From: Escherichia phage P896
Strand: one strand, 5' to 3'
Sequence record: OL451225.1
Length of the DNA stretch: 64,000 nt
Shown here: piece after piece, positions 1,246-50,562 of the stretch
Position numbering within the stretch: the first letter of the stretch is position 1
Layout of the letters: each line of letters opens with the position of its first letter
Translations under genes and position numbers: made by a program
Notes under the pieces: model-generated
Database searches by the model: none
Seen by the model: only the letters and a program-made list of their open reading frames with translations
Told to the model about the DNA's origin: nothing

Positions 1246-3960
1246 TTAAAAATCAAACATATCAAAAAGAGTTGCTTTCTTTTCGTAATCAACCTTTGCA
1301 GCTTCGGAGAAACCTGTTAATGGCTTAACAAAAGTCTTCTGGAACAGTGTGTTGTAGTCCATCCACTGCAGAACCTGGTCACGGATTTCAATCGGGAGTT
1401 CAATCCCAGATGGCCATGCAATCACGGTTTCACCAAACGGGTTGCCGACTTTGAGCGGAAGTACATACACCTTTTCCCCTTCCATGATTTGCGGAACAGT
1501 CTTCAGACCTTTAGTTGCACGCATATATGCAAGCACACCTTTGATATGAGCCGGACACTTAAATCCAGGGAAACCGCCTTCATTATATTTCTGGATGTTG
1601 TTAACCGATGATACACCTGCGATGGTCATGTAGTTAAGCTCATTAAATTCCTTATTGAATTCCTTGAAGTATGTCTGCAGAGATTCTTCACCTTCTTGCA
1701 GCATACGGCGGATACATTCTTTCAGAGCTTTCTGACATGCCTTTGGAGTACTCGACTTTTGAGTTTCCAGACCCATGATTTTCAGTTTCGGAACAGCATA
1801 TCGTGTGCCTTCCATATCGTACACGTTCAACGCATAACGCTTCTTCGCTGTCCAGAATCCACCAACACCCTTCGAACCCAGTGGAGGACATGCAATCGCC
1901 TCACGGTCCATAAACATAAGGTGCTGTTTGTTGTTCATGTATTCAGCCAGCTCACGGAAAGCTTTATCGATTGCCGGTTCCAGACGGTCTTTCGCAAACT
2001 TGTCCATGAAGTCAACCAGGTGGTTTGTATCGCGGAATTTAGATTCACCACCAACCTTTTTAATCAGGTTATCGCACTGGATATAAATGGAGTCAGTGTC
2101 ACCATAGAATACGTAGGTTTCGCCGCTTGTCCCACAGACACTATCGAAGTATTCGTTAACTTTACGCTCAATCCACTGCAATGCAAGTTGTCCGAAAGAT
2201 GTAATCGCGGTTGCATTTCGCAGGTCAAAGTAACGGAACCATATATTGCCCAGAGCGCCATAACAACTGTTGATAAGCAGTTTACGGTTAATCTGTGCGG
2301 TCATGCCTGCAACTTCTTCCATCTGCGCTTTGTACAGCATACCATTTAGGACTGTTTGATTCAGACCATGCAGGGCCGTTTTCATATTGTCATCAAAGTC
2401 ATGACGATAATCAACTTCAGGCTCGGTTGTACCAGTTCCTGGATTACGCAGAGCTTCCTTAATCAGTTCACCATTACGTTGAGCCGCAAGCATATAGCCT
2501 TTGTGTTCTTTACGCTGATTAAACACCTTGGTGACTTCTGTCGGAATAATACCCGCAACATCTTTAAAATACATCATACCATTTGGAGCACAACTAAATG
2601 TATCAGATGGACGGTCAGCAGTTCCTGCAATGTATTCGTACATCGGCGCTGGCGCAAATGACCCGGCAATCGTTTCTGGACTGATGTTAATCTGTCGGAT
2701 AATGCTTGGATACAGAGATGTTAAGTCACAGCTCATTACATATTTGTATGCGTTCGGAATCGGTTCCTTAACAAATGCACCAGGGAACGATTGGCGAACA
2801 TGTGATTTGGTTTCCGGAATGACTTTGTTTTGAGTCTTCAGGCTGTTAAAGATAATCGCATCCCAAGTTTTGATTGGGCTGAATACAGACTGAATCTGCA
2901 TTTTTGCATAATAACCCATTGACTGGCTCAGGTTAATAAACTGCCGCTTACGGTCAATCTGCACAACACGATAAACGTCGATGATGTTATAAGAAATATA
3001 CCGCTGGTGATTTGATTCACGCAGTTTAGAAATCGGGCCATCATACGGGAGTTTACCAACACCCAGTTCAGATTCCGCAACATAATCCAACGAATAAGAC
3101 GGTTGGTTTGTGAAGCTGAACTTTTTATACAGGTCCAGATAATCCAGAACAGAGATACCCAGAATCTGAATGATTTCTTGTTCTTCACCAAAGCCGTTGT
3201 TAATGACTTTAACTTTTGTACGACGATGTGGGCTCAGACGTTTTGCCGTAGCTTCACCAAATACATTTTTAAGGCGGTTGTAGATATATGGAATATCAAA
3301 CTTCTCGATGTTCCAACCAGTTAACATAACCGGAGTTTTCTCGTTCCAGAATACCAAATACTGCTGGAGCATTTCTTCTTCTGAATCGAAAGCCATATAA
3401 ACAATTTTTTCCAGGATTTCTTCCGGGACTTCATCACCACCATCTTCCTGCAGCTTAGCAGCAATATCAATAGACCATTGCTCCACAGTGGCGTATGGTG
3501 AGCCCAAAAGGTCAAAGACATAGAATTTATCGTCTACCGAATCATAGTGCGTCAGGGCGTCAATAGGGTGACGTGCTTCAGACGGCTCAGGGAACCCATC
3601 AGGAGATGTCACCTCGATATCGAAGTTAGCCACACGGATTTTACTTGAATCGTATTTGATTTCGTGCGGGTAACGGTCGGACAAGTATGCGAGTTTAAAG
3701 TCGTCCATGCCCATGGCTTCGAGGCCCATGTCATTCATTCGCTTCATCCACTGGGATGCATCACGCATGGAATCGAATTCTTTTTTCACACAACCTTTAT
3801 TATAGATGTCTGTATACTTTGCAGCTTGGTCTTCACGGGCGTGCATAAACAAGCATGGAGCATAAGGGATTTCACGAACACGTTCATGACCATTCTTGTC
3901 AATATATCGTTCGTGTAGGTTGTCACCGATTTGTTCGATAGTTAAATAAAATTCTTGCAT
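1246..3960 (-). CDS. 43: DNA polymerase (family B), gp43
   Basis: 904-aa ORF with N-terminus MQEFYLTIEQIGDNLHERYID close to recalled T4 gp43; exonuclease and polymerase motifs (YGDTDS) present; ATG start with AAGGAAA RBS. Confidence 0.97.
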   Translation of the reverse strand: MQEFYLTIEQIGDNLHERYIDKNGHERVREIPYAPCLFMHAREDQAAKYTDIYNKGCVKKEFDSMRDASQWMKRMNDMGLEAMGMDDFKLAYLSDRYPHEIKYDSSKIRVANFDIEVTSPDGFPEPSEARHPIDALTHYDSVDDKFYVFDLLGSPYATVEQWSIDIAAKLQEDGGDEVPEEILEKIVYMAFDSEEEMLQQYLVFWNEKTPVMLTGWNIEKFDIPYIYNRLKNVFGEATAKRLSPHRRTKVKVINNGFGEEQEIIQILGISVLDYLDLYKKFSFTNQPSYSLDYVAESELGVGKLPYDGPISKLRESNHQRYISYNIIDVYRVVQIDRKRQFINLSQSMGYYAKMQIQSVFSPIKTWDAIIFNSLKTQNKVIPETKSHVRQSFPGAFVKEPIPNAYKYVMSCDLTSLYPSIIRQINISPETIAGSFAPAPMYEYIAGTADRPSDTFSCAPNGMMYFKDVAGIIPTEVTKVFNQRKEHKGYMLAAQRNGELIKEALRNPGTGTTEPEVDYRHDFDDNMKTALHGLNQTVLNGMLYKAQMEEVAGMTAQINRKLLINSCYGALGNIWFRYFDLRNATAITSFGQLALQWIERKVNEYFDSVCGTSGETYVFYGDTDSIYIQCDNLIKKVGGESKFRDTNHLVDFMDKFAKDRLEPAIDKAFRELAEYMNNKQHLMFMDREAIACPPLGSKGVGGFWTAKKRYALNVYDMEGTRYAVPKLKIMGLETQKSSTPKACQKALKECIRRMLQEGEESLQTYFKEFNKEFNELNYMTIAGVSSVNNIQKYNEGGFPGFKCPAHIKGVLAYMRATKGLKTVPQIMEGEKVYVLPLKVGNPFGETVIAWPSGIELPIEIRDQVLQWMDYNTLFQKTFVKPLTGFSEAAKVDYEKKATLFDMFDF

Positions 3961-10338: not shown

Positions 10339-10478
10339 AAGCCAAGCACCGTTATCGCAATGCAAAATAAAATTATTGAAATGAACCCGTCAGGAGTGGA
10401 AAAGAATCCTATCCAACAAGCTCGTGTGAATGTATAGAATGCCATGAATAGCACGACATATCCTAAAAATAATTCCAT
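10335..10478 (-). CDS. small hydrophobic membrane peptide, 47 aa
   Basis: Not in ORF track (below 60 aa). ATG with GAGGAG RBS; stop overlaps gene 47 start (ATGA). Confidence 0.4.
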   Translation of the reverse strand: MELFLGYVVLFMAFYTFTRACWIGFFSTPDGFISIILFCIAITVLGL

Positions 10479-10525
10479 ATGTTCTCCTCAGTTGGTTCAT
10501 TTTATCATCCCGAATATAAAGCAAA

Positions 10526-10547
10526 AAGGAAGCACTAGGCTTCCTTT
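10526..10547 (-). terminator. hairpin GGAAGC-n4-GCUUCC followed by UUUUUGCUUU
   Basis: Inverted repeat plus T-run read on the minus strand. Confidence 0.45.
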
Positions 10548-10708
10548 CCAATTAATACACCATACAGAGGTTCATGAGAAGACCTGAACTTGATAGGCTT
10601 ATAGGTAATAGTACCTTCATTTTCTGCTTTAATACGAGCGGCTTCAAATTGAAGTATCATCTCATTTTTGTCAGATTTAATCTTATCAAAATCCGTCGAA
10701 TTCGTCAT
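10535..10708 (-). CDS. possible small ORF, 57 aa
   Basis: ATG 8 nt after GAGG; below the ORF-track cutoff; weak support. Confidence 0.25.
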   Translation of the reverse strand: MTNSTDFDKIKSDKNEMILQFEAARIKAENEGTITYKPIKFRSSHEPLYGVLIGKEA

Positions 10709-10766
10709 TCATATGACCTCTTAAACTTTTTCGTATTCGTCGTTCATTAGCCTGCTGTCCATGTTA

Positions 10767-10973
10767 TCATCGTTGCCACCATTTCTTAAGTTGATGTGAG
10801 TCTACCCAAACTTTGGATGTCGGCTCAATTTTAACAATACCTTTTGGAACACCATAAGGGCCAAGGAGCTTACATTCGGTTTCGGACTGCTTGATACAGA
10901 TATTACCGTATGAGCGAAGTCTGAAAGCGGCTCCAATAAGAAGCCGTTTAAAAGGTTTATTTACTAATGCCAT
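10767..10973 (-). CDS. hypothetical protein, 68 aa
   Basis: ORF track; ATG start; lies where T4 has alpha-gt. Confidence 0.45.
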   Translation of the reverse strand: MALVNKPFKRLLIGAAFRLRSYGNICIKQSETECKLLGPYGVPKGIVKIEPTSKVWVDSHQLKKWWQR

Positions 10974-11268
10974 TTACGATTTCCCAAATTTGTTTGCGAG
11001 TAGAATCCCACATCAACTTAATCAGGTCTTCCGTAACGGGTTGGCGGTAAATCCCACGCAGTTTAACTAAAGCGTATTTGTATGCTTCAAAATTGTTTTC
11101 CAGCACTGCGCCTTGAGCATGCTTATTCAGTCGTGCAATTTCACGAGCATTCTTTTTCAGAATCTTCGCTGCTTGGCTGGTTGCTTCAAGTGCGTTCGCT
11201 TCTTCGAGACGTTCCTGTGCTTCTTCAATCTGCTTATCGGTCAGTTGAGAAATATCTGGAGCTTGCAT
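10957..11268 (-). CDS. hypothetical protein, 103 aa, helical
   Basis: ORF track. Confidence 0.5.
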   Translation of the reverse strand: MQAPDISQLTDKQIEEAQERLEEANALEATSQAAKILKKNAREIARLNKHAQGAVLENNFEAYKYALVKLRGIYRQPVTEDLIKLMWDSTRKQIWEIVNGISK

Positions 11269-11269
11269 A

Positions 11270-11503
11270 TTAATCCTTGGGAGTTAACTCAATTGTAAAA
11301 TATAGATTAGCATTATCCACATGATAACGGTAATCAACGTTATTATCCGGTGAAGTAAATTCCAGATTCCGGACGTTTAAAGGGTCGATATCAATTGGAA
11401 GACCTTTTATGTCTCGCAGATAAAGTTTAATGAAATATGGGAGCGCCGTAAAGTCTTCCTCGATTTTATCTAAAAAATCGGTAATATCAAATTGATGTTC
11501 CAT
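11270..11503 (-). CDS. hypothetical protein, 77 aa
   Basis: ORF 11270..11521 begins on GTG; trimmed to first ATG. Confidence 0.4.
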
Positions 11504-14350: not shown

Positions 14351-14410
14351 TCCTCATCAGTAGTTGATGGGATAATGATACACCGTTCAAAGGGGCTTGT
14401 ACACCCCTTT
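14351..14410 (-). promoter_or_regulatory. early promoter cassette (-35 GTGTACA inside a GGGG/CCCC hairpin, -10 TATCAT, conserved leader ATTATCCCATCAACTACTGA)
   Basis: Read on the minus strand; member of the GATGGGATA class of repeats. Confidence 0.5.
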
Positions 14411-28140: not shown

Positions 28141-28195
28141 TCAGTAGTTGATGGGATAATAGTACACCCTTTTTATGGTGATGTAAACCCCTAAA
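28141..28195 (-). promoter_or_regulatory. early promoter cassette (-35 GTTTACA, 17-bp spacer, -10 TACTAT, leader ATTATCCCATCAACTACTGAGGAGA)
   Basis: Read on the minus strand upstream of gene 27927..28130. Confidence 0.55.
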
Positions 28196-32447: not shown

Positions 32448-32503
32448 GATTATCTCCTTTTGTTTGATGGGATAATCATAACTCATTTCAATCTGCTTGT
32501 ACA
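32448..32503 (-). promoter_or_regulatory. early promoter cassette, GATGGGATA class
   Basis: Conserved GTTTGATGGGATAATCATA block plus GTACA -35-like element upstream of regB. Confidence 0.45.
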
Positions 32504-34278: not shown

Positions 34279-34578
34279 TTAGAAAGAACCAGAACCTTTA
34301 ATTGTGTTCTGGCGACCTTTATTTTCCAATTCAGAATGGTCAATTTCATATGCTTGTGCCACGCCAAAAGCCTTTTTAACTTTAGCTAAAGAACCTTTAG
34401 ATGTAACAATATTAAAAGTATTACCTTTGGTAAAATCAACCAAATCCACTTGTACACCTTGTTTACCGAGGCTTGCGACAATAGCATCAACATATTGTTG
34501 GTCTAAATTGCCCTGGACTCCAATTTGGAATGCTTTAGGAGCTTTGGCTTCAGTAATAAATTCTTGATAAGTTTTCAT
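34279..34578 (-). CDS. internal-protein-like head protein with N-terminal capsid-targeting-like sequence MKTYQEFITE
   Basis: 99 aa starting MKTYQEFITEA; matches the recalled T4 internal protein targeting sequence (MKTYQEFIAE). Confidence 0.6.
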   Translation of the reverse strand: MKTYQEFITEAKAPKAFQIGVQGNLDQQYVDAIVASLGKQGVQVDLVDFTKGNTFNIVTSKGSLAKVKKAFGVAQAYEIDHSELENKGRQNTIKGSGSF

Positions 34579-34632
34579 TTTATTCTCTCTAAGTTGATGG
34601 GATAATTATGCACTATCCCATCAAAAAGTAAA
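34579..34632 (-). promoter_or_regulatory. early promoter cassette (-35 GTTTAC, 17-bp spacer, -10 CATAAT bracketed by GATGGGATA/TATCCCATC)
   Basis: Read on the minus strand upstream of the internal-protein-like gene. Confidence 0.55.
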
Positions 34633-34635
34633 CAG

Positions 34636-34899
34636 TTATGCTTTACCGCCAGAAACAATACCAAAGGTCTCAAAGTCCCATTCAATATCGTCAACATCAA
34701 CTTTCTTACCAGCAACCACGAATGCGATTTCGCGACGTTTTGCATAGGTGACAATTTCTTTACCATCGCCGCCAAAGAAAGAATAACCATTGCGCTTCAT
34801 GGTGCCAAAGTCTTCAGCATCACCAGCGAATGCGCGGACTTTAAAGGAACCAGCAGGAGCTTTGGCAGATTCAGTAATAAATTCTTGATAAGTTTTCAT
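34636..34899 (-). CDS. internal-protein-like head protein (MKTYQEFITE start)
   Basis: ORF 34636..34938 trimmed to the internal ATG that yields MKTYQEFITESAKAP; 87 aa. Confidence 0.55.
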   Translation of the reverse strand: MKTYQEFITESAKAPAGSFKVRAFAGDAEDFGTMKRNGYSFFGGDGKEIVTYAKRREIAFVVAGKKVDVDDIEWDFETFGIVSGGKA

Positions 34900-34947
34900 T
34901 TTATATTCCATTGTTTGGTTGATAAAATCATTATACAACCTTTTTAG

Positions 34948-35364
34948 TTAAGCGTACACAGCTTTCCCATAGTATTTGTACCAGGTAGGCTTTTGAGAAA
35001 TTTTCTCATTCAGTCTGGCTTGACTGATTTCAATTGACCAGATTGATGGTTGATAATCATTCTTCCATTCATCAGGAATATCATTTAAATCTTGGGTAGA
35101 AATATCTTTTATGTTAAACCCTCGCTTTAAACATTCCGCAATAAGTTCTTGATGACGGTTTTTAAGGAACAAAAGCTTATCATAAAAGAAGGTGACATGA
35201 CCAGTCCCTAAAAGAAAAGATGATGGGATTTTAAAGTCAGAAACCTTTTTACCATTTTGCACATGCTTACGAACAGCACCAAACACGCGAGGAAGTTCAC
35301 GATATTCGGCCATAAGATGTTGGTCAGCAAGTTCAGATACCAGGGTCAAATTAATGCGAGTCAT
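34948..35364 (-). CDS. denV: endonuclease V (pyrimidine dimer DNA glycosylase) DenV
   Basis: Trimmed to [31 protein letters not shown]..., near-identical to recalled T4 DenV; 138 aa as in T4. Confidence 0.92.
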
Positions 35365-35423
35365 GTTTGTTCTCCTATGTTTGTAGGAGAACATTATATC
35401 ACACGTATCGTGGAAGTAAACTG
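35365..35423 (-). promoter_or_regulatory. promoter-like element with -10 TATAAT followed by hairpin GTTCTCCTA/TAGGAGAAC that contains the denV RBS
   Basis: Read on the minus strand. Confidence 0.4.
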
Positions 35424-35726
35424 TTATTTACCTTTAATTGCTTTAGCTGCTTCGATAGCCGCTTGCTGAAGGTCATCCATAGACATGCCGAACTTAGAAG
35501 CAAAGTTATCAATTTTCTTTTCGACAGAATTCAAAGGCTTGGCCTGTTTACCTTCGTTAGCGCCAGGGAGAGCTAGAATACGCTCTTTGTCAATATAAAG
35601 GCTTACAAGTTTCTTACGGTCTTTATCTGGTAAATCATGAAATGAATGGGCCTTTTTATTTACAGCGGCTTCTAATTTACCTGCACTTACGCGCGCTTCG
35701 GTGATAAATTCTTTATACGTTTTCAT
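35424..35726 (-). CDS. internal-protein-like head protein ([10 protein letters not shown] start)
   Basis: 100 aa; N-terminal capsid-targeting-like sequence; between denV and e, where T4 has ipII/ipIII. Confidence 0.6.
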
Positions 35727-45970: not shown

Positions 45971-45994
45971 AAACCCCAACCTTTCGGAAGGGGC
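45971..45994 (-). terminator. hairpin CCCCUUCC-GAAA-GGUUGGGG (GNRA loop, two U-U mismatches) followed by UUUUUUUAUA
   Basis: Read on the minus strand after the stop of gene 46033..46416. Confidence 0.45.
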
Positions 45995-46032
45995 CATACC
46001 TTGTCGGGGTTCCACCTGCAAGGCAAGTGTTC

Positions 46033-46416
46033 TTATCCGCGAGCAAAGGCCATTGCAGCGCGTTCGTTGGCACGGTCAGTGATGTTCAAGAATTTATCAC
46101 GAGCGATTTCGATTGGAGCACCAACCCAGTCAGCGGCACCATTACCTGGAGACTGTTTAGGACGAACCATATAAGTTGAAACTTTGGAACCAGCTAGTTT
46201 AGCACCAGGTGCTGCTGCGTTTTTAACATCTTTAGCTTTGATGCCAAACCCAGTTACGATACCCCAAGAAACGCCATTAACTGGTTTCTTGAACATAACA
46301 CGGTCACCAATTGAAACACCGGCTTTTTCTGGAGCCACTAAAGAAAATTTGCCAGCTTCAGTCAGTACGGATTCGGTGATGGTATTGCGATTTAAAAATT
46401 CTGCATATGTAAGCAT
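46033..46416 (-). CDS. hypothetical protein, 127 aa
   Basis: ORF track; ATG with GGAAAAA RBS. Confidence 0.5.
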   Translation of the reverse strand: MLTYAEFLNRNTITESVLTEAGKFSLVAPEKAGVSIGDRVMFKKPVNGVSWGIVTGFGIKAKDVKNAAAPGAKLAGSKVSTYMVRPKQSPGNGAADWVGAPIEIARDKFLNITDRANERAAMAFARG

Positions 46417-46458
46417 TTTGTTTTTCCATTATTAGGGTTGTTGTTAATATTTATATTC

Positions 46459-48318: not shown

Positions 48319-48504
48319 TTACTCACCTTTAGAGATTTTATCCATAACGAAAGAGATTGAACCAATTAAAAATGCAACTACTAAAGAGATTATATTCTCA
48401 GAAGTTGAAAGCATATTCAACATAAAGCCAGCAAACATGCTAAAACCAAAAGCGGTAACAGCAACAAAGGCAGTAACATTTCTAATTAATTCGCAACGTT
48501 TCAT
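48319..48504 (-). CDS. small membrane protein, 61 aa
   Basis: ORF 48319..48537 trimmed to ATG at 48504 (GAGGAGAATAAA RBS); the removed residues MIIPSTTEENK are translation of the promoter cassette. Confidence 0.45.
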   Translation of the reverse strand: MKRCELIRNVTAFVAVTAFGFSMFAGFMLNMLSTSENIISLVVAFLIGSISFVMDKISKGE

Positions 48505-48561
48505 TTTATTCTCCTCAGTAGTTGATGGGATAATCATACTACAGTTATCCCATCACGTACA
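48505..48561 (-). promoter_or_regulatory. early promoter cassette, GATGGGATA class (inverted repeat GATGGGATAA/TTATCCCATC)
   Basis: Read directly. Confidence 0.5.
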
Positions 48562-48840
48562 CTAAATTTTTGTATATTGTCCAGCTTTAACTTTTTTCAG
48601 TTCACGAGGGCTTACCGCGTAAGTGAATGGAGCATTCCAGGAAGAACTGACTTTGTAACCTTTAGTCAACATCATTGCTGAAACTTTCTTGTTATCAGGA
48701 CCGTTTTCGCCTTTAACAAGAAACAACTCAAATGCGCCCCCATCAACCGGTTTGGCCTTAACCATCAGATGTCCTTTCAGGTCTTCCAGCATATCCGGGT
48801 GACTAATTGATTCGTTAATAAATTCTTGATAAGTTTTCAT
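48562..48840 (-). CDS. internal-protein-like head protein (MKTYQEFINE start)
   Basis: 92 aa with N-terminal capsid-targeting-like sequence. Confidence 0.55.
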   Translation of the reverse strand: MKTYQEFINESISHPDMLEDLKGHLMVKAKPVDGGAFELFLVKGENGPDNKKVSAMMLTKGYKVSSSWNAPFTYAVSPRELKKVKAGQYTKI

Positions 48841-48895
48841 TAGTAGCTCCAGTAGTTGATGGGATAATTATACTGCAACTATCCCATCGTGTACA
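48841..48895 (-). promoter_or_regulatory. early promoter cassette (-35 GTACAC, 16-bp spacer, -10 TATAAT bracketed by GATGGGATA/TATCCCATC)
   Basis: Read on the minus strand. Confidence 0.55.
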
Positions 48896-49195
48896 TTACA
48901 TTTTTGAACCACGAATTACACCATAAGCGGCGAAGTCGTCAGAAATATCTTTAGGTGAGTTCTTACCAGTTTCAATGAAGGCAATGCTTGACTTCTGACT
49001 AAAAGAGGTAATTTTGTTATAGTTGGAGTCAAGGAAGGTATAACCATTTTTGCGTAGCTGGTCAAAGTCTTCAGCGTCGCCTTTGCCTTTGAAGTCAACC
49101 CATTTGTAGGTGTTTTTCTTCTGAAGACCCAGAGGCCAGGTTTTTGCTTCTGCCAGGTAATTGTTTTCTACCAAAAATTCATGAAAAGTTTGCAT
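48896..49195 (-). CDS. internal-protein-like protein (MQTFHEFLVE start)
   Basis: 99 aa; divergent targeting-like N-terminus. Confidence 0.5.
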   Translation of the reverse strand: MQTFHEFLVENNYLAEAKTWPLGLQKKNTYKWVDFKGKGDAEDFDQLRKNGYTFLDSNYNKITSFSQKSSIAFIETGKNSPKDISDDFAAYGVIRGSKM

Positions 49196-49203
49196 TTGAA
49201 ATC

Positions 49204-49476
49204 CTATTTTAGATAAATTGCATATTTTTTATAACCAGCTGTCTCATGACGGAGACCCTTGTCATTGGCAAAACGCTCAATGTTATTAATTTGGTTCTGG
49301 TCAAGTTCTGAAATGTCAAACGCGAAAAAGTTGCGTTTGTTACCAATTGTTATATGGTCAGTCAAGTCAATGCTATACAGGTGATTGATATTGTCAATCA
49401 TAGCTTTGACTGCTTTACTAATTTTTACTTCTTCATTCAGTTGGGACTCGTTGAAAAGTTCATTGAAAGTTTTCAT
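49204..49476 (-). CDS. internal-protein-like protein (MKTFNELFNE start)
   Basis: 90 aa; divergent targeting-like N-terminus. Confidence 0.5.
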   Translation of the reverse strand: MKTFNELFNESQLNEEVKISKAVKAMIDNINHLYSIDLTDHITIGNKRNFFAFDISELDQNQINNIERFANDKGLRHETAGYKKYAIYLK

Positions 49477-49484
49477 AAGAAACC

Positions 49485-49817
49485 TTATTTATATAGTTTT
49501 GCCAGTTCTTTACGTCCGCGAGCAGACATAATAAATTGTTCATCGCCAATTTTAAAATAAGCCATACCACCGTCAACAGCGATACCAATTTCTTTAGTAC
49601 CTTCTTTGCCTTTCCACTTGCCACCAGATTTCAGAACAGCTTCAACTGCAGCTTTGGAATATTTGGACGTTTGAAAACGTTCATTACCAATCTGAAAGAA
49701 AACACCATCTGCATTTTTGGTTAAACCAAATTTCAGAGAGCCTTCACTATCATCAATTGATTTGGTCTCATTGATGGCGGATTCGGCTAAAAACTCGTTG
49801 TAAGTTTTGATGTTCAT
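49485..49817 (-). CDS. internal-protein-like protein (MNIKTYNEFLAE start)
   Basis: ORF 49485..49850 trimmed to ATG at 49817 with GGAG RBS; 110 aa. Confidence 0.5.
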   Translation of the reverse strand: MNIKTYNEFLAESAINETKSIDDSEGSLKFGLTKNADGVFFQIGNERFQTSKYSKAAVEAVLKSGGKWKGKEGTKEIGIAVDGGMAYFKIGDEQFIMSARGRKELAKLYK

Positions 49818-49877
49818 ATTAACTCCGTTTGTTCGTTGGTGTAGGAACATAATACTGCGCCTACACTCATTTGTACA
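49818..49877 (-). promoter_or_regulatory. early promoter (-35 GTGTACA, 17-bp spacer, -10 TATTAT inside GTGTAGG/CCTACAC inverted repeat)
   Basis: Read on the minus strand. Confidence 0.5.

Positions 49878-50562
<685 letters not shown>

What the first reader, a model, noticed from the sequence alone, without database searches (positions are those of the whole stretch)
48562..49817. Second cluster of four capsid-targeting-like genes next to acb1 (ipI-equivalent locus)
Four tandem genes start MKTYQEFINE, MQTFHEFLVE, MKTFNELFNE and MNIKTYNEFLAE, progressively diverged versions of the same targeting-like leader, with unrelated bodies. Together with the denV-proximal set this gives seven candidate packaged proteins, more than the three recalled for T4. 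Each has its own promoter cassette, which suggests modular acquisition.
Basis: partly seen in the sequence, partly recalled or inferred. Interest (0 to 1): 0.65.

Follow-up and report, generated by a model that had tools for sequence, protein, structure and literature searches.

The report
Internal-protein gene array at ipI locus
Four small genes next to the anti-CBASS gene acb1 in a T4-like (Gaprivervirus) phage all carry the known T4 capsid-targeting leader on unrelated protein bodies, so they are most likely extra injected "internal proteins"; this is a known, fast-changing kind of locus, not a new system.

Summary
The sequence observation holds. Four tandem minus-strand genes (48562-48840, 48896-49195, 49204-49476, 49485-49817) start MKTYQEFINE, MQTFHEFLVE, MKTFNELFNE and MNIKTYNEFLAE. 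Their bodies show no detectable similarity to each other. Three more such genes flank denV, giving 7 motif hits in 64 kb against about 0.005 expected by chance.

The window is a Gaprivervirus T4-like phage, 98% identical to Escherichia phages 212 and CJ20. The cluster fills the slot between acb1/57B and trna.4 that holds the single gene ipI in T4.

- One gene is the named internal protein Ip9.
- One belongs to a PHROG "internal head protein" family and has a paralogue near denV.
- Two are unannotated, and one of these is an ORFan.

The claim "each has its own promoter cassette" is wrong. Two early-promoter/stem-loop cassettes of the PeSL type serve four genes, and three genes are joined by 8-nt gaps. 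Nine related genomes carry at least seven body families at this locus. An ip6 presence/absence difference maps to recombination between two cassettes.

Packaging, processing and function are inferred only. The class has been known since 1994, so this is a new member of a known kind and of modest interest.

Extras:
- Ip9's body occurs without the leader in siphoviruses.
- The fourth gene is modelled with a Whirly-like fold.
- A possible eighth leader-bearing gene lies at 46033-46416.

The parts
48562..48840 (-). g1: 92-aa leader-bearing gene (MKTYQEFINE, then an 82-aa basic body with pI 9.6). A lineage-restricted ORFan (PHROG 15565, unknown function).
   Evidence: Found in only 17 phage records, all at least 97.8% identical. 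One 90%-identity cluster in 5.8 billion proteins.
48841..48895 (-). PeSL-type cassette driving g1. The g2 stop codon abuts the -35 TGTACA (48895-48890). The -10 is TATAAT (48872-48867). The hairpin is GATGGGATA...TATCCCATC (48855-48888), followed by SD GGAG.
   Evidence: Promoter scan scores 10/12. 57-nt repeat D2 at 86% identity. Hairpin dG -17.3 kcal/mol, z -2.9. The same cassette lies upstream of the swappable genes in 9 genomes.
48896..49195 (-). g2: 99-aa leader-bearing gene (MQTFHEFLVE), PHROG 2667 "internal head protein". Paralogue of the denV-proximal gene 34636-34899.
   Evidence: Frameshifted pseudogene in SP18. Replaced by ip5 in VR26, MN01 and RZ.
49204..49476 (-). g3: 90-aa Ip9 orthologue (MKTFNELFNE; a second LxE motif, LNE, ends at residue 15). 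PHROG 7673 "internal head protein".
   Evidence: 78% identical to RB15 Ip9, Q38376. AF2 pLDDT 81.2 with no PDB fold match.
49485..49817 (-). g4: 110-aa leader-bearing gene (MN + IKTYNEFLAE), PHROG 3966 (unknown function). The body is modelled as a (beta4-alpha)x2 Whirly-like fold.
   Evidence: All homologues start MKTY.EF; this lineage has a 2-residue N-terminal extension. The 121-aa annotation starting at 49850 lacks an SD and begins inside the hairpin/-10 region.
49818..49877 (-). Diverged PeSL-type cassette driving the g4-g3-g2 block. -35 TGTACA (49877-49872), -10 TATTAT (49854-49849), hairpin GTGTAGG...CCTACAC, SD GGAG.
   Evidence: dG -14.3 kcal/mol, z -1.7. Conserved in all nine genomes.
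48505..48561 (-). PeSL-type cassette between the g1 stop codon and trna.4. It is the 3' homology arm of the g1 cassette and a chimera of the two VR7 cassettes that flank ip6.
   Evidence: (dG -19.5 kcal/mol, z -4.0).
49878..50333 (-). acb1 (T4 57B), the conserved upstream boundary of the locus.
   Evidence: Pfam Acb1 E 1.5e-59. Synteny.
48319..48504 (-). trna.4 homologue (small membrane protein), the conserved downstream boundary of the locus.
   Evidence: PHROG 1692. Annotations. SD GAGGAG precedes the ATG at 48504.
34279..35726 (-). Second internal-protein locus flanking denV. d1 34279-34578 (PHROG 2667, preceded by the same GATGGGATA hairpin cassette). d2 34636-34899 (paralogue of g2). d3 35424-35726 (T4 IPII orthologue, 95.6% identical).

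Best explanation
The four genes are an expanded ipI locus of a Gaprivervirus T4-like phage: an array of internal-protein genes.

**Gene architecture.** Each gene fuses a short N-terminal capsid-targeting sequence to an unrelated 80-98 residue body. The leader pattern is K/Q-T-Y/F-x-E-F/L-hydrophobic-x-E, with hydrophobic residues at positions 4, 7 and 8 and acidic residues at 6 and 10. This is a predicted short amphipathic helix.

**Inferred mechanism, from T4.**
1. The leader binds the scaffolding core during prohead assembly.
2. The prohead protease gp21 cuts after the Glu of the (L/I)-x-E motif.
3. The mature protein of about 9-10.7 kDa stays in the head with the DNA.
4. It is injected with the DNA at the next infection and acts before any phage gene is expressed.
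5. It probably neutralises a host first-line defence, as T4 Ip1, Ip2 and Ip3 each neutralise a different GmrSD type IV restriction enzyme.

**Transcription.** There are two units. One early-type promoter/stem-loop cassette drives g4-g3-g2, which have 8-nt junctions. A second cassette drives g1.

**Evolution.** The locus changes by homologous recombination between these dispersed cassettes. For the swappable genes, the nucleotide-conserved leader codons also provide homology. This inserts, deletes or replaces whole leader+body units.

**Shown here:** the motif, synteny, homology to named Ip families, the cassette anatomy, and the turnover with one chimeric junction.
**Inferred:** packaging, cleavage, injection and the anti-defence role.
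For: **Motif**
- 7 hits versus about 0.005 expected, all at ORF starts.
- The residues reported to matter in T4 IPIII are kept in every gene: positions 4 and 7 for targeting, 8 and 10 for processing (PMC9026906 section 2.6). Position 4 is Y or F, 7 is F or L, 8 is I, L or F, and 10 is E.

**Selection acts on the peptide, not only on the DNA**
- The g2, g3 and g4 leaders share only 20-22 of 30 nt with g1 but keep the amino-acid pattern. They use synonymous codons such as TAT/TAC, TTT/TTC and GAA/GAG.
- In 12 g4 homologues (52-98% identity), K, T, Y, F and E of the leader are invariant. The linker right after the leader is the most variable stretch and has pLDDT below 50.

**Synteny and homology**
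- The cluster sits in the same slot as T4 ipI.
- g3 is Ip9 of RB15. g2 and d1 are in PHROG 2667. d3 is the T4 IPII orthologue at 95.6% identity.
- g4 homologues sit next to 57B, or next to endolysin e (the other IP locus) in other genera. In Edwardsiella phage PEi20 the match overlaps features annotated ipI and hypothetical protein.

**Protein properties**
- Mature proteins are small and mostly basic: pI 9.6, 9.1 and 9.3, and 6.8-8.3 for g3.

**Modularity**
- The leader MKTYQEFI is attached to 17 other body families (59-610 aa) in IMG/VR.
- At least seven body families occupy this locus in nine genomes that are 95-98% identical in the flanks.
- The window's g1-to-trna.4 cassette is a 5'/3' chimera of the two VR7 cassettes that flank ip6.

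**Promoter arrangement is not a problem**
- T4 ipI, a proven packaged protein, has the same arrangement. It is flanked by two promoter/stem-loop cassettes and has no TATAAATA just upstream.

**Function by analogy**
- Ip1, Ip2 and Ip3 are type IV restriction inhibitors (PMC12373910).
Against: - There is no direct evidence of packaging, cleavage or injection for any of the four. I found no virion proteomics for this genus.
- No consensus late promoter (TATAAATA) precedes g4 or g1. The only nearby copy, at 49493, sits 9 nt upstream of the g3 ATG inside the g4 stop region. It may be a by-product of the codons for L-Y-K-stop.
- g3 has Phe, not Ile or Leu, at the P3 position of the first cleavage motif.
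- g4 has a 2-residue N-terminal extension of unknown effect.
- g2 has Q2. It has Leu at position 4 in VR7 and is a pseudogene in SP18, so its leader may be decaying.
- None of the four bodies resembles Ip1, Ip2 or Ip3.
- Gaprivervirus phages are reported to lack the hydroxymethylcytosine synthase gene (PMC8056088, PMC12115623). GmrSD-type enzymes may therefore not be their targets.
Confidence: 0.78

Rival explanations
1. The proteins are ordinary early cytoplasmic accessory or anti-defence proteins that are not packaged. The shared 5' end is kept as a DNA-level element, either a translation-initiation region or a homology arm for cassette recombination, and not as a targeting peptide.
For: - The promoters are early-type sigma-70-like cassettes, and g4 and g1 have no late promoter.
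- For g1 and the other swappable genes, the leader codons are conserved at the nucleotide level together with the promoter cassette. They match 28-30 of 30 nt and so act as part of the recombination arm.
- Ip9-body homologues in siphoviruses work without any leader.
- T4 IPIII lacking its leader still rescues infection when expressed in the host (PMC9391042).
Against: - g2, g3 and g4 keep the peptide pattern with only 20-22 of 30 nt identity and with synonymous codon changes.
- Leader residues are invariant across g4 homologues that are 52% identical overall.
- T4 ipI has the same promoter arrangement and is packaged at about 360 copies per head.
Confidence: 0.1
2. Only some of the four are functional packaged proteins. 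g1, with the canonical leader, is packaged. One or more of g2, g3 and g4 have decayed leaders and are poorly targeted or unprocessed, or are on their way to being lost.
For: - g2 has Q2 and F4. It has L4 in VR7, is frameshifted in SP18, and is replaced by ip5 in three genomes.
- g3 has L7 and F8.
- g4 has an N-terminal extension whose second and third residues vary (MNI, MSI, MSV, MNL).
Against: - g4 and g3 are present and intact in all nine genomes compared.
- T4 IPI itself has a divergent leader (MKTFKEFTST...ITE, cleaved after residue 19 according to my recollection of the T4 literature) and is packaged (for the sequence).
Confidence: 0.3
3. The packaged proteins mainly serve inside the head or on the entering DNA and are not specific defence inhibitors. 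Possible roles are charge neutralisation, DNA organisation or end protection. The g4 protein, with a Whirly/PUR-like fold, would bind single-stranded nucleic acid.
For: - The mature proteins are basic.
- In T4, lysines of internal proteins contact DNA phosphates, and IPIII loss reduces the rate of head assembly (PMC3012670 and PMC9026906).
Against: - Rapid gain, loss and replacement among near-identical genomes fits an arms-race function better than a housekeeping one.
- All three T4 Ips with known targets are defence inhibitors.
- The g4 model is only moderately confident: the best model has pLDDT 76.7 and the other four have 53-67.
Confidence: 0.15

Closest known systems
T4 internal protein I (ipI) and the polymorphic ipI locus of T-even phages (Repoila et al. 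1994; Mullaney and Black 1996)
   Same: - Same genomic slot between 57B/acb1 and trna.4.
- Same type of N-terminal capsid-targeting leader ending in an (L/I)xE protease site.
- Small bodies that are unrelated between genes.
- Flanked by early-promoter/stem-loop cassettes.
   Different: - Four genes instead of one.
- None of the bodies is homologous to IPI.
- The host phage genus reportedly lacks the hmC pathway whose glucosylated product IPI's target enzyme attacks.
Ip9 of phage RB15 (UniProt Q38376) and the ip5/ip6/ip9 annotations in vB_EcoM_VR7 and VR26
   Same: - g3 is 78% identical to RB15 Ip9 and 100% identical to VR7 Ip9.
- ip5 and ip6 occupy the variable slots of the same locus in sister genomes.
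   Different: g1, g2 and g4 are annotated only as hypothetical in those records. Elsewhere g4 is mislabelled "profilin" and g2 "homing endonuclease".
PeSL elements (promoter-early stem-loop cassettes) of T4-type phages (Arbiol et al. 2010, PMC2839356; Comeau et al. 2014, PMC4122927)
   Same: - Each is a sigma-70-like promoter plus a stem-loop lying between -35 and -10 or overlapping -10, followed by SD and ATG.
- They are dispersed in hyperplastic regions.
- Indels and replacements are bounded by them, and there is a chimeric junction.
   Different: - At this locus the conserved unit extends into the coding sequence and includes the 30-nt leader. The body is therefore exchanged between a promoter+leader arm and the next promoter.
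- Promoter and terminator activity were not tested here.
T4 Ip2 and Ip3 as subtype-specific GmrSD type IV restriction inhibitors (Silas et al. 2025, PMC12373910; Srikant et al. 2022, PMC9391042)
   Same: Same protein class. The window carries an Ip2 orthologue at 35424-35726.
   Different: - The four genes here have no sequence similarity to Ip1, Ip2 or Ip3.
- Their targets are unknown.
- Ten other ip genes showed no activity against the newly tested GmrSD systems.
Whirly / PUR / MRP (beta4-alpha)x2 nucleic-acid-binding fold
   Different: - Sequence identity is 8-13%.
- The model is only moderately confident.
- No binding data exist, and the oligomeric state is unknown.

Membership tests
T4-type internal proteins (capsid-targeted, gp21-processed, injected) | N-terminal capsid-targeting leader M-K-T-Y/F-x-E-F-I/L-x-E, with the residues at positions 4 and 7 that are needed for targeting | tested here: met
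   All four genes match: Y/F at 4, F/L at 7, E at 6 and 10. g4 matches after a 2-residue extension. The criterion comes from PMC9026906.
T4-type internal proteins (capsid-targeted, gp21-processed, injected) | Prohead-protease site (L/I)-x-E at the end of the leader | tested here: inconclusive
   g1 has INE, g2 has LVE and g4 has LAE, all of which fit. g3 has FNE at 8-10 (Phe at P3) and a canonical LNE at 13-15. Cleavage itself was not observed.
T4-type internal proteins (capsid-targeted, gp21-processed, injected) | Encoded at one of the two IP loci (57B-trna.4, or around e/denV) | tested here: met
   Synteny with T4.
T4-type internal proteins (capsid-targeted, gp21-processed, injected) | Homology to a named Ip family | tested here: inconclusive
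   - g3 is Ip9.
- g2 is in PHROG 2667, "internal head protein".
- g4 (PHROG 3966) and g1 (PHROG 15565) are in families of unknown function.
T4-type internal proteins (capsid-targeted, gp21-processed, injected) | Physically present in virions in processed form and ejected into the host | not testable with these tools
   Needs virion mass spectrometry. Literature searches found no proteomics for this genus.
PeSL regulatory/recombination cassettes | Sigma-70-like early promoter with a stem-loop between or overlapping the boxes, followed by SD and start codon, in an intergenic position | tested here: met
   Met for the cassettes at 48841-48895 and 49818-49877. At 48505-48561 the -35 is weaker and the promoter scan did not report it. 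There is no cassette before g3 or g2. Definition from PMC2839356.
PeSL regulatory/recombination cassettes | Repeated across hyperplastic regions of the genome | tested here: met
   The 15-mer ATTATCCCATCAACT has 5 exact minus-strand copies (14362, 28146, 34592, 48520, 48854) against 0.21 expected.
PeSL regulatory/recombination cassettes | Gene insertions, deletions and replacements between close relatives are bounded by the cassettes, with chimeric junctions | tested here: met
   Nine-genome layout. The window cassette equals the VR7 cassette a 5' half plus the cassette b 3' half.
PeSL regulatory/recombination cassettes | Demonstrated promoter and terminator/attenuator activity | not testable with these tools
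   Needs reporter fusions or transcript mapping.
GmrSD (type IV restriction) inhibitors of the Ip1/Ip2/Ip3 type | Sequence or fold homology to Ip1, Ip2 or Ip3 | tested here: not met
   The four bodies give no BLASTP similarity to T4 IPI, IPII or IPIII. No PDB sequence relatives were found. IPI* did not appear among the listed matches in the fold searches for g3 and g4.
GmrSD (type IV restriction) inhibitors of the Ip1/Ip2/Ip3 type | Phage DNA carries glucosyl-hmC, the substrate of the inhibited enzymes | not tested
   The relevant genes lie outside the window. The literature reports that Gaprivervirus lacks the hmC-synthesis gene and may carry an unknown base.

The most novel reading that the evidence does not exclude
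The capsid-targeting leader may work as a general "pre-loading tag". T4-like phages would fuse it to free-standing small early proteins drawn from the wider phage gene pool, turning an early-expressed effector into one delivered with the DNA.

Ip9 is the worked example. Its body occurs without any leader in Kagunavirus and Seuratvirus siphoviruses, among their small early-region genes.

In Gaprivervirus the hmC pathway is reportedly missing. The seven or eight such proteins would then target defences other than the GmrSD enzymes hit by T4 Ip1-3. One of them (g4) would be a Whirly-fold nucleic-acid binder, which would be a new mode of action for an injected protein.
Probability: 0.25. Interest if true: 0.55.

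Novelty: new member of a known kind. Interest (0 to 1): 0.3.

Why it matters
Injected internal proteins are the first phage factors to meet host immunity. After 50 years, only T4 Ip1, Ip2 and Ip3 have known targets.

This locus offers four more candidates, two of them unannotated, in a phage genus whose DNA modification is unresolved. It also shows how the repertoire is reshuffled.

Practical value:
- Better annotation. Three of the four genes are "hypothetical" or mislabelled in GenBank relatives.
- A short list for anti-defence screens.
- A natural leader-less homologue of Ip9 that allows packaging-dependent and packaging-independent function to be compared.

It does not change the current understanding of the system.

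Tried and rejected
**Searches that gave nothing useful**
- Pfam gave nothing above threshold for the four proteins.
- PDB sequence searches gave nothing.
- The g3 model has no fold match in the PDB; the best E is 0.2.
- Rfam and tRNA scans show no RNA gene inside 48562-49817.

**Alternatives rejected**
- Plus-strand ORFs in the region are 34-68 aa and I saw no support for them in any search or annotation.
- Promoter-like matches inside g4 (49576-49549) and g3 (49397-49370) are not above shuffle expectation: 12 found against 10.2 ± 3.2. The first is not conserved in VR7. I did not accept them as own promoters.
- The 121-aa start of g4 at 49850 was rejected. It has no SD, lies within the hairpin/-10, and the extension is absent in EAWsc9, MN01 and RZ.

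**Literature and other dead ends**
- I looked for virion proteomics of related phages and found none usable.
- Repoila 1994, Miller 2003, Rifat 2008 and Bair 2007 are not held in the library. Their content is cited only through papers that summarise them.
- I tried to infer DNA modification from the window. It starts at gene 43, there is no long ORF where T4 has a-gt, and gene 42 lies outside.
Full report
**What is there**

The region 48562-49817 holds four tandem genes, all on the minus strand:

| Gene | Coordinates | Length | Start |
|---|---|---|---|
| g1 | 48562-48840 | 92 aa | MKTYQEFINE |
| g2 | 48896-49195 | 99 aa | MQTFHEFLVE |
| g3 | 49204-49476 | 90 aa | MKTFNELFNE |
| g4 | 49485-49817 | 110 aa | MNIKTYNEFLAE |

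- Each gene has a Shine-Dalgarno-like sequence at normal spacing.
- The longer 121-aa reading of g4, used in several GenBank relatives, starts at an ATG inside the upstream hairpin/-10 region and has no Shine-Dalgarno sequence. It is unavailable in three sister genomes.
- The upstream gene 49878-50333 is Acb1 (Pfam E 1.5e-59).
- The downstream gene is the trna.4 homologue.
- No Rfam family or tRNA lies inside the cluster.

**Is the motif more than chance?**

- A six-frame scan with a pattern derived from the leaders finds exactly seven matches in 64 kb. All are at ORF starts: the four genes plus 34279-34578, 34636-34899 and 35424-35726.
- Shuffled sequence gives 0 hits (mononucleotide) or 0.005 hits (triplet blocks) on average. 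The per-N-terminus probability is about 1e-6.
- With the leader removed, the four bodies show no pairwise similarity.
- Across clusters, g2 is a paralogue of 34636-34899 (38% identity over 61 aa, E 5e-14).
- 35424-35726 is the orthologue of T4 IPII at 95.6% identity.

**Identity of the window and of the locus**

- The region is 98.4% identical to Escherichia phages 212 and CJ20, and 95-97% identical to vB_EcoM_VR7, VR20 and Shigella phage SP18. The classified relatives belong to the genus Gaprivervirus, subfamily Tevenvirinae.
- T4 has trna.4 | ipI | 57B | 57A | 1 | 3 | 2.
- The window has trna.4 | g1 g2 g3 g4 | acb1(57B) | 57A | 1 | 3.
- So this is the ipI slot, with four genes where T4 has one.
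- g3 is 100% identical to the gene annotated ip9 in VR7 and 78% identical to Ip9 of phage RB15, UniProt Q38376.
- g2 belongs to PHROG 2667, "internal head protein". g4 (PHROG 3966) and g1 (PHROG 15565) belong to families of unknown function.
- g1 is an ORFan. It appears in 17 phage records, all at least 97.8% identical, and forms a single 90% cluster in a 5.8-billion-protein collection.

**What the leader is**

- In T4, the first 10 residues of IPIII (MKTYQEFIAE) are sufficient to load foreign proteins into the prohead core. Residues 4 and 7 matter for targeting and residues 8 and 10 for processing by the prohead protease (PMC9026906 section 2.6; PMC3012670).
- All seven window genes keep an aromatic residue at position 4, F or L at 7, a hydrophobic residue at 8, and Glu at 6 and 10.
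- Two results argue that the peptide is under selection and not only the DNA.
  - The g2, g3 and g4 leaders share only 20-22 of 30 nt with g1 but keep the residue pattern, using synonymous codons.
  - In twelve g4 homologues (52-98% identity), K, T, Y, F and E of the leader are invariant. The linker just behind it is the most variable stretch and is modelled as disordered.
- AlphaFold models place a short helix on the leader: residues 6-12 in g4 and 4-13 in g3.
- Predicted mature products are 8.7-10.7 kDa. pI is 9.6 (g1), 9.1 (g2), 6.8-8.3 (g3) and 9.3 (g4).
- Caveats:
  - g3 has Phe at P3 of the first cleavage motif, with a canonical LNE ending at residue 15.
  - g4 carries a 2-residue N-terminal extension that varies (MNI, MSI, MSV, MNL) among sister phages.
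  - g2 has Gln2. It has Leu4 in VR7 and is frameshifted in SP18.

- A 57-nt repeat (86% identity) occurs at 48516-48572 and 48850-48906.
- Read on the minus strand, the repeat is: stop codon, (G)TGTAC as -35, GATGGGATA, a short loop holding TATAAT or TATGAT, TATCCCATC, AACTACTGGAG as Shine-Dalgarno, then ATG.
- The promoter scan scores the g1 copy 10/12 (TGTACA-17-TATAAT). It scores a diverged copy upstream of g4 9/12 (TGTACA-17-TATTAT, with a different stem, GTGTAGG/CCTACAC).
- The hairpins fold at -17.3, -19.5 and -14.3 kcal/mol, with z -2.9, -4.0 and -1.7.
- g3 and g2 have no such cassette. The g4-g3 and g3-g2 gaps are 8 nt each.
- The cluster is therefore two transcription units, g4-g3-g2 and g1.
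- The anatomy matches published PeSL elements: a sigma-70-like early promoter plus a stem-loop between the boxes or overlapping -10, followed by SD and ATG (PMC2839356; PMC4122927).
- The cassette is not specific to internal-protein genes. Its 15-mer core has five exact copies in the window, including one upstream of the denV-proximal gene 34279-34578. Only 0.21 copies are expected.
- T4 ipI is itself flanked by two cassettes of this type.

**Turnover**

I compared the acb1-trna.4 interval in nine Gaprivervirus genomes. A dash marks an 8-nt junction and a bar marks a cassette-containing gap of 54-83 nt.

| Genome | Layout |
|---|---|
| window, phage 212 | g4-Ip9-g2 \| g1 |
| VR7 | g4-Ip9-g2 \| g1 \| Ip6 |
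| SP18 | g4-Ip9-(g2 pseudogene) \| g1 |
| TH54 | g4-Ip9-g2 \| E |
| EAWsc9 | g4-Ip9-g2 \| Ip5 \| E |
| VR26 | g4-Ip9-Ip5 \| Ip6 |
| MN01, RZ | g4-Ip9-Ip5 \| E \| F |

- At least seven body families use this one locus within a genus whose flanks are 95-98% identical. g4 and Ip9 are constant.
- For the swappable genes, the promoter, hairpin, Shine-Dalgarno sequence and the 30 leader nucleotides are conserved together. Each body therefore lies between two homology arms.
- A three-way alignment shows the window's g1-to-trna.4 cassette is identical to VR7's g1-to-ip6 cassette on its 5' side and to VR7's ip6-to-trna.4 cassette on its 3' side. The switch falls inside the shared hairpin/-10 segment.
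- That is the footprint expected if ip6 was gained or lost by cassette-by-cassette recombination, as proposed for PeSLs.
- "Modular acquisition" is thus supported for the variable slots, though not because every gene has a cassette.

**Wider context of the bodies**

- *g4 family.* Homologues occur in T4-like phages of Edwardsiella, Citrobacter, Salmonella, Serratia, Pectobacterium and Erwinia. They sit either next to 57B or next to the endolysin gene at the other IP locus. In PEi20 the match overlaps features annotated ipI and hypothetical protein.
- *g2 family.* It extends to Salmonella S16-like and Morganella phages.
- *g3 (Ip9) family.* The body has homologues of 72-74 aa with no leader in the siphoviruses JSSK01 (Kagunavirus) and SHIN8 (Seuratvirus), at 49-50% identity. 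They lie among small early-region genes.
  - An exhaustive HMMER search of 1.84 billion representatives found only eight clusters. Some have leader-like N-termini (MKFNEFLTE, MKSFKEYLTE) and some have none.
  - This shows directly that the leader is an add-on to a free-standing protein.
  - It parallels the finding that T4 IPIII without its leader still works when made in the host (PMC9391042).
- *The leader elsewhere.* A scan of IMG/VR for codons of MKTYQEFI returned 62 loci and 52 distinct proteins. These fall into 17 body families of 59-610 aa.

**Structure**

- The g4 model has mean pLDDT 76.7 and pTM 0.64; the other four models score 53-67. It shows two beta4-alpha repeats.
- This is a fold-level lead only.
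- The g3 model (pLDDT 81.2) is a small alpha/beta domain with no PDB match.
- None of the four has a PDB sequence relative.
- None resembles T4 IPI, IPII or IPIII.

**Most likely mechanism**

Inferred from T4:
1. The leader docks the protein to the scaffolding core.
2. The prohead protease removes the leader.
3. The mature protein remains in the head.
4. It is injected with the DNA and acts before phage gene expression.

- T4 Ip1, Ip2 and Ip3 each inhibit a distinct GmrSD type IV restriction enzyme. Related phages are said to carry at least ten further Ips found by their leader (PMC12373910).
[quoted passage not shown] The functions of Ip9 and its neighbours are therefore open.
- Gaprivervirus phages are reported to lack the hmC synthesis gene and may carry an unknown base (PMC8056088, PMC12115623). 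I do not assume GmrSD is the target.
- An open point is the supply of protein during head assembly. The only nearby TATAAATA sites on the coding strand are at 49493 (9 nt before the g3 ATG, overlapping the g4 stop), 50781 and 53228.
- T4 ipI has the same arrangement and is packaged. This is not evidence against packaging.

**Comparison with what is known, and verdict**

- The class is established: leader-tagged internal proteins at a polymorphic ipI locus.
- The cassette type is published (PeSL).
- One of the four genes is a named Ip.
- New at the level of detail:
  - g1 and g4, annotated as hypothetical or mislabelled, belong to the class by motif and position.
  - The operon and cassette anatomy of this locus is resolved.
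  - A chimeric-junction footprint of an ip6 indel is documented.
  - Leader-less Ip9 homologues exist in siphoviruses.
  - g4 is predicted to have a Whirly-like fold.
- I rate it a new member of a known kind, with interest 0.3.

Noticed in passing
window 46033-46416 (-), promoter at 46448-46455, terminator about 45975-46025: A possible eighth internal protein. The 127-aa ORF starts MLTYAEFLNRNTITE|SVLTE|A, keeping Y4, F7 and L8, with ITE and LTE protease-type motifs. This resembles the long leader of T4 IPI (MKTFKEFTSTTTPVSTITE). It has a consensus late promoter TATAAATA 39 nt upstream and an intrinsic terminator downstream. The mature pI is about 10. It has no PHROG family and occurs in only 15 phage records, all at least 99% identical.
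   Followed up: partly
L006:2507-2725 (Kagunavirus JSSK01); L007:2492-2716 (Seuratvirus SHIN8); P0021, P0022, P0025: The Ip9 body exists as a free-standing 66-74 aa protein without any capsid-targeting leader in unrelated siphoviruses and metagenomic sequences. This shows the leader is a modular add-on.
   Followed up: yes
P0018 ("ip7 protein", Escherichia phage OLB35) versus window 34279-34578 and 49204-49476: A mosaic internal protein. By my visual comparison, which was not tested with an alignment tool, the N-terminal part resembles the denV-proximal protein d1. The last 36 residues are about 80% identical to the C-terminus of Ip9. This suggests recombination within bodies as well as between cassettes.
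   Followed up: no
window 34279-35726: In this phage, internal-protein genes flank denV on both sides: the IPII orthologue sits between e and denV, and two more lie downstream of denV. T4 has e-ipIII-ipII-denV. There is no IPIII orthologue in the window. The gene at 34279-34578 is preceded by the same GATGGGATA hairpin cassette as the ipI locus.
   Followed up: partly
L008:2087-2369 (Shigella phage SP18): The g2 orthologue is frameshifted to a 27-aa stub, and SP18 annotates it as a misc_feature. In VR7 its leader has Leu instead of Phe at position 4. This suggests g2 is dispensable or decaying.
   Followed up: partly
Public records PQ341120 (EAWsc9), PQ765507 (phage 212), HM563683 (VR7): Likely mis-annotations of this locus in GenBank relatives. 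g4 is labelled "profilin", g2 "homing endonuclease" and acb1 "RNA ligase". In several records the g4 start is set 11 codons too far upstream (366 nt instead of 333 nt).
   Followed up: partly
window 14362-14376, 28146-28160, 32462-32476 (-): Further copies of the ATTATCCCATCAACT cassette core lie elsewhere in the window, presumably marking other hyperplastic, swappable genes. I did not examine them.
   Followed up: no
L003 about 3317-3361 (EAWsc9, between the g2 stop and ip5); MN01/RZ upstream of trna.4: Alternative intergenic elements occupy the same positions. One is a GGGGATAATTATCCCC palindrome followed by a T-run, which looks like a terminator with no clear promoter. The other is a cassette with a different stem (GGTCTAG/CTAGACC). 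The hairpin is thus conserved in position but not in sequence.
   Followed up: no
IMG/VR loci L017-L074: The exact leader MKTYQEFI also heads much larger proteins of 282-610 aa in uncultivated viral contigs. One is a nine-member family of about 283 aa. The tag may therefore load large cargo in environmental T4-like phages.
   Followed up: no
window 10366-11486: T4 has the alpha-glucosyltransferase gene between genes 47 and 55. I inferred the window's equivalents of genes 47 and 55 from ORF length and position only. At that position the window has no ORF of 170 aa or more. This fits reports that this genus lacks the T4-type hmC/glucosylation pathway. Gene 42 lies outside the window.
   Followed up: partly
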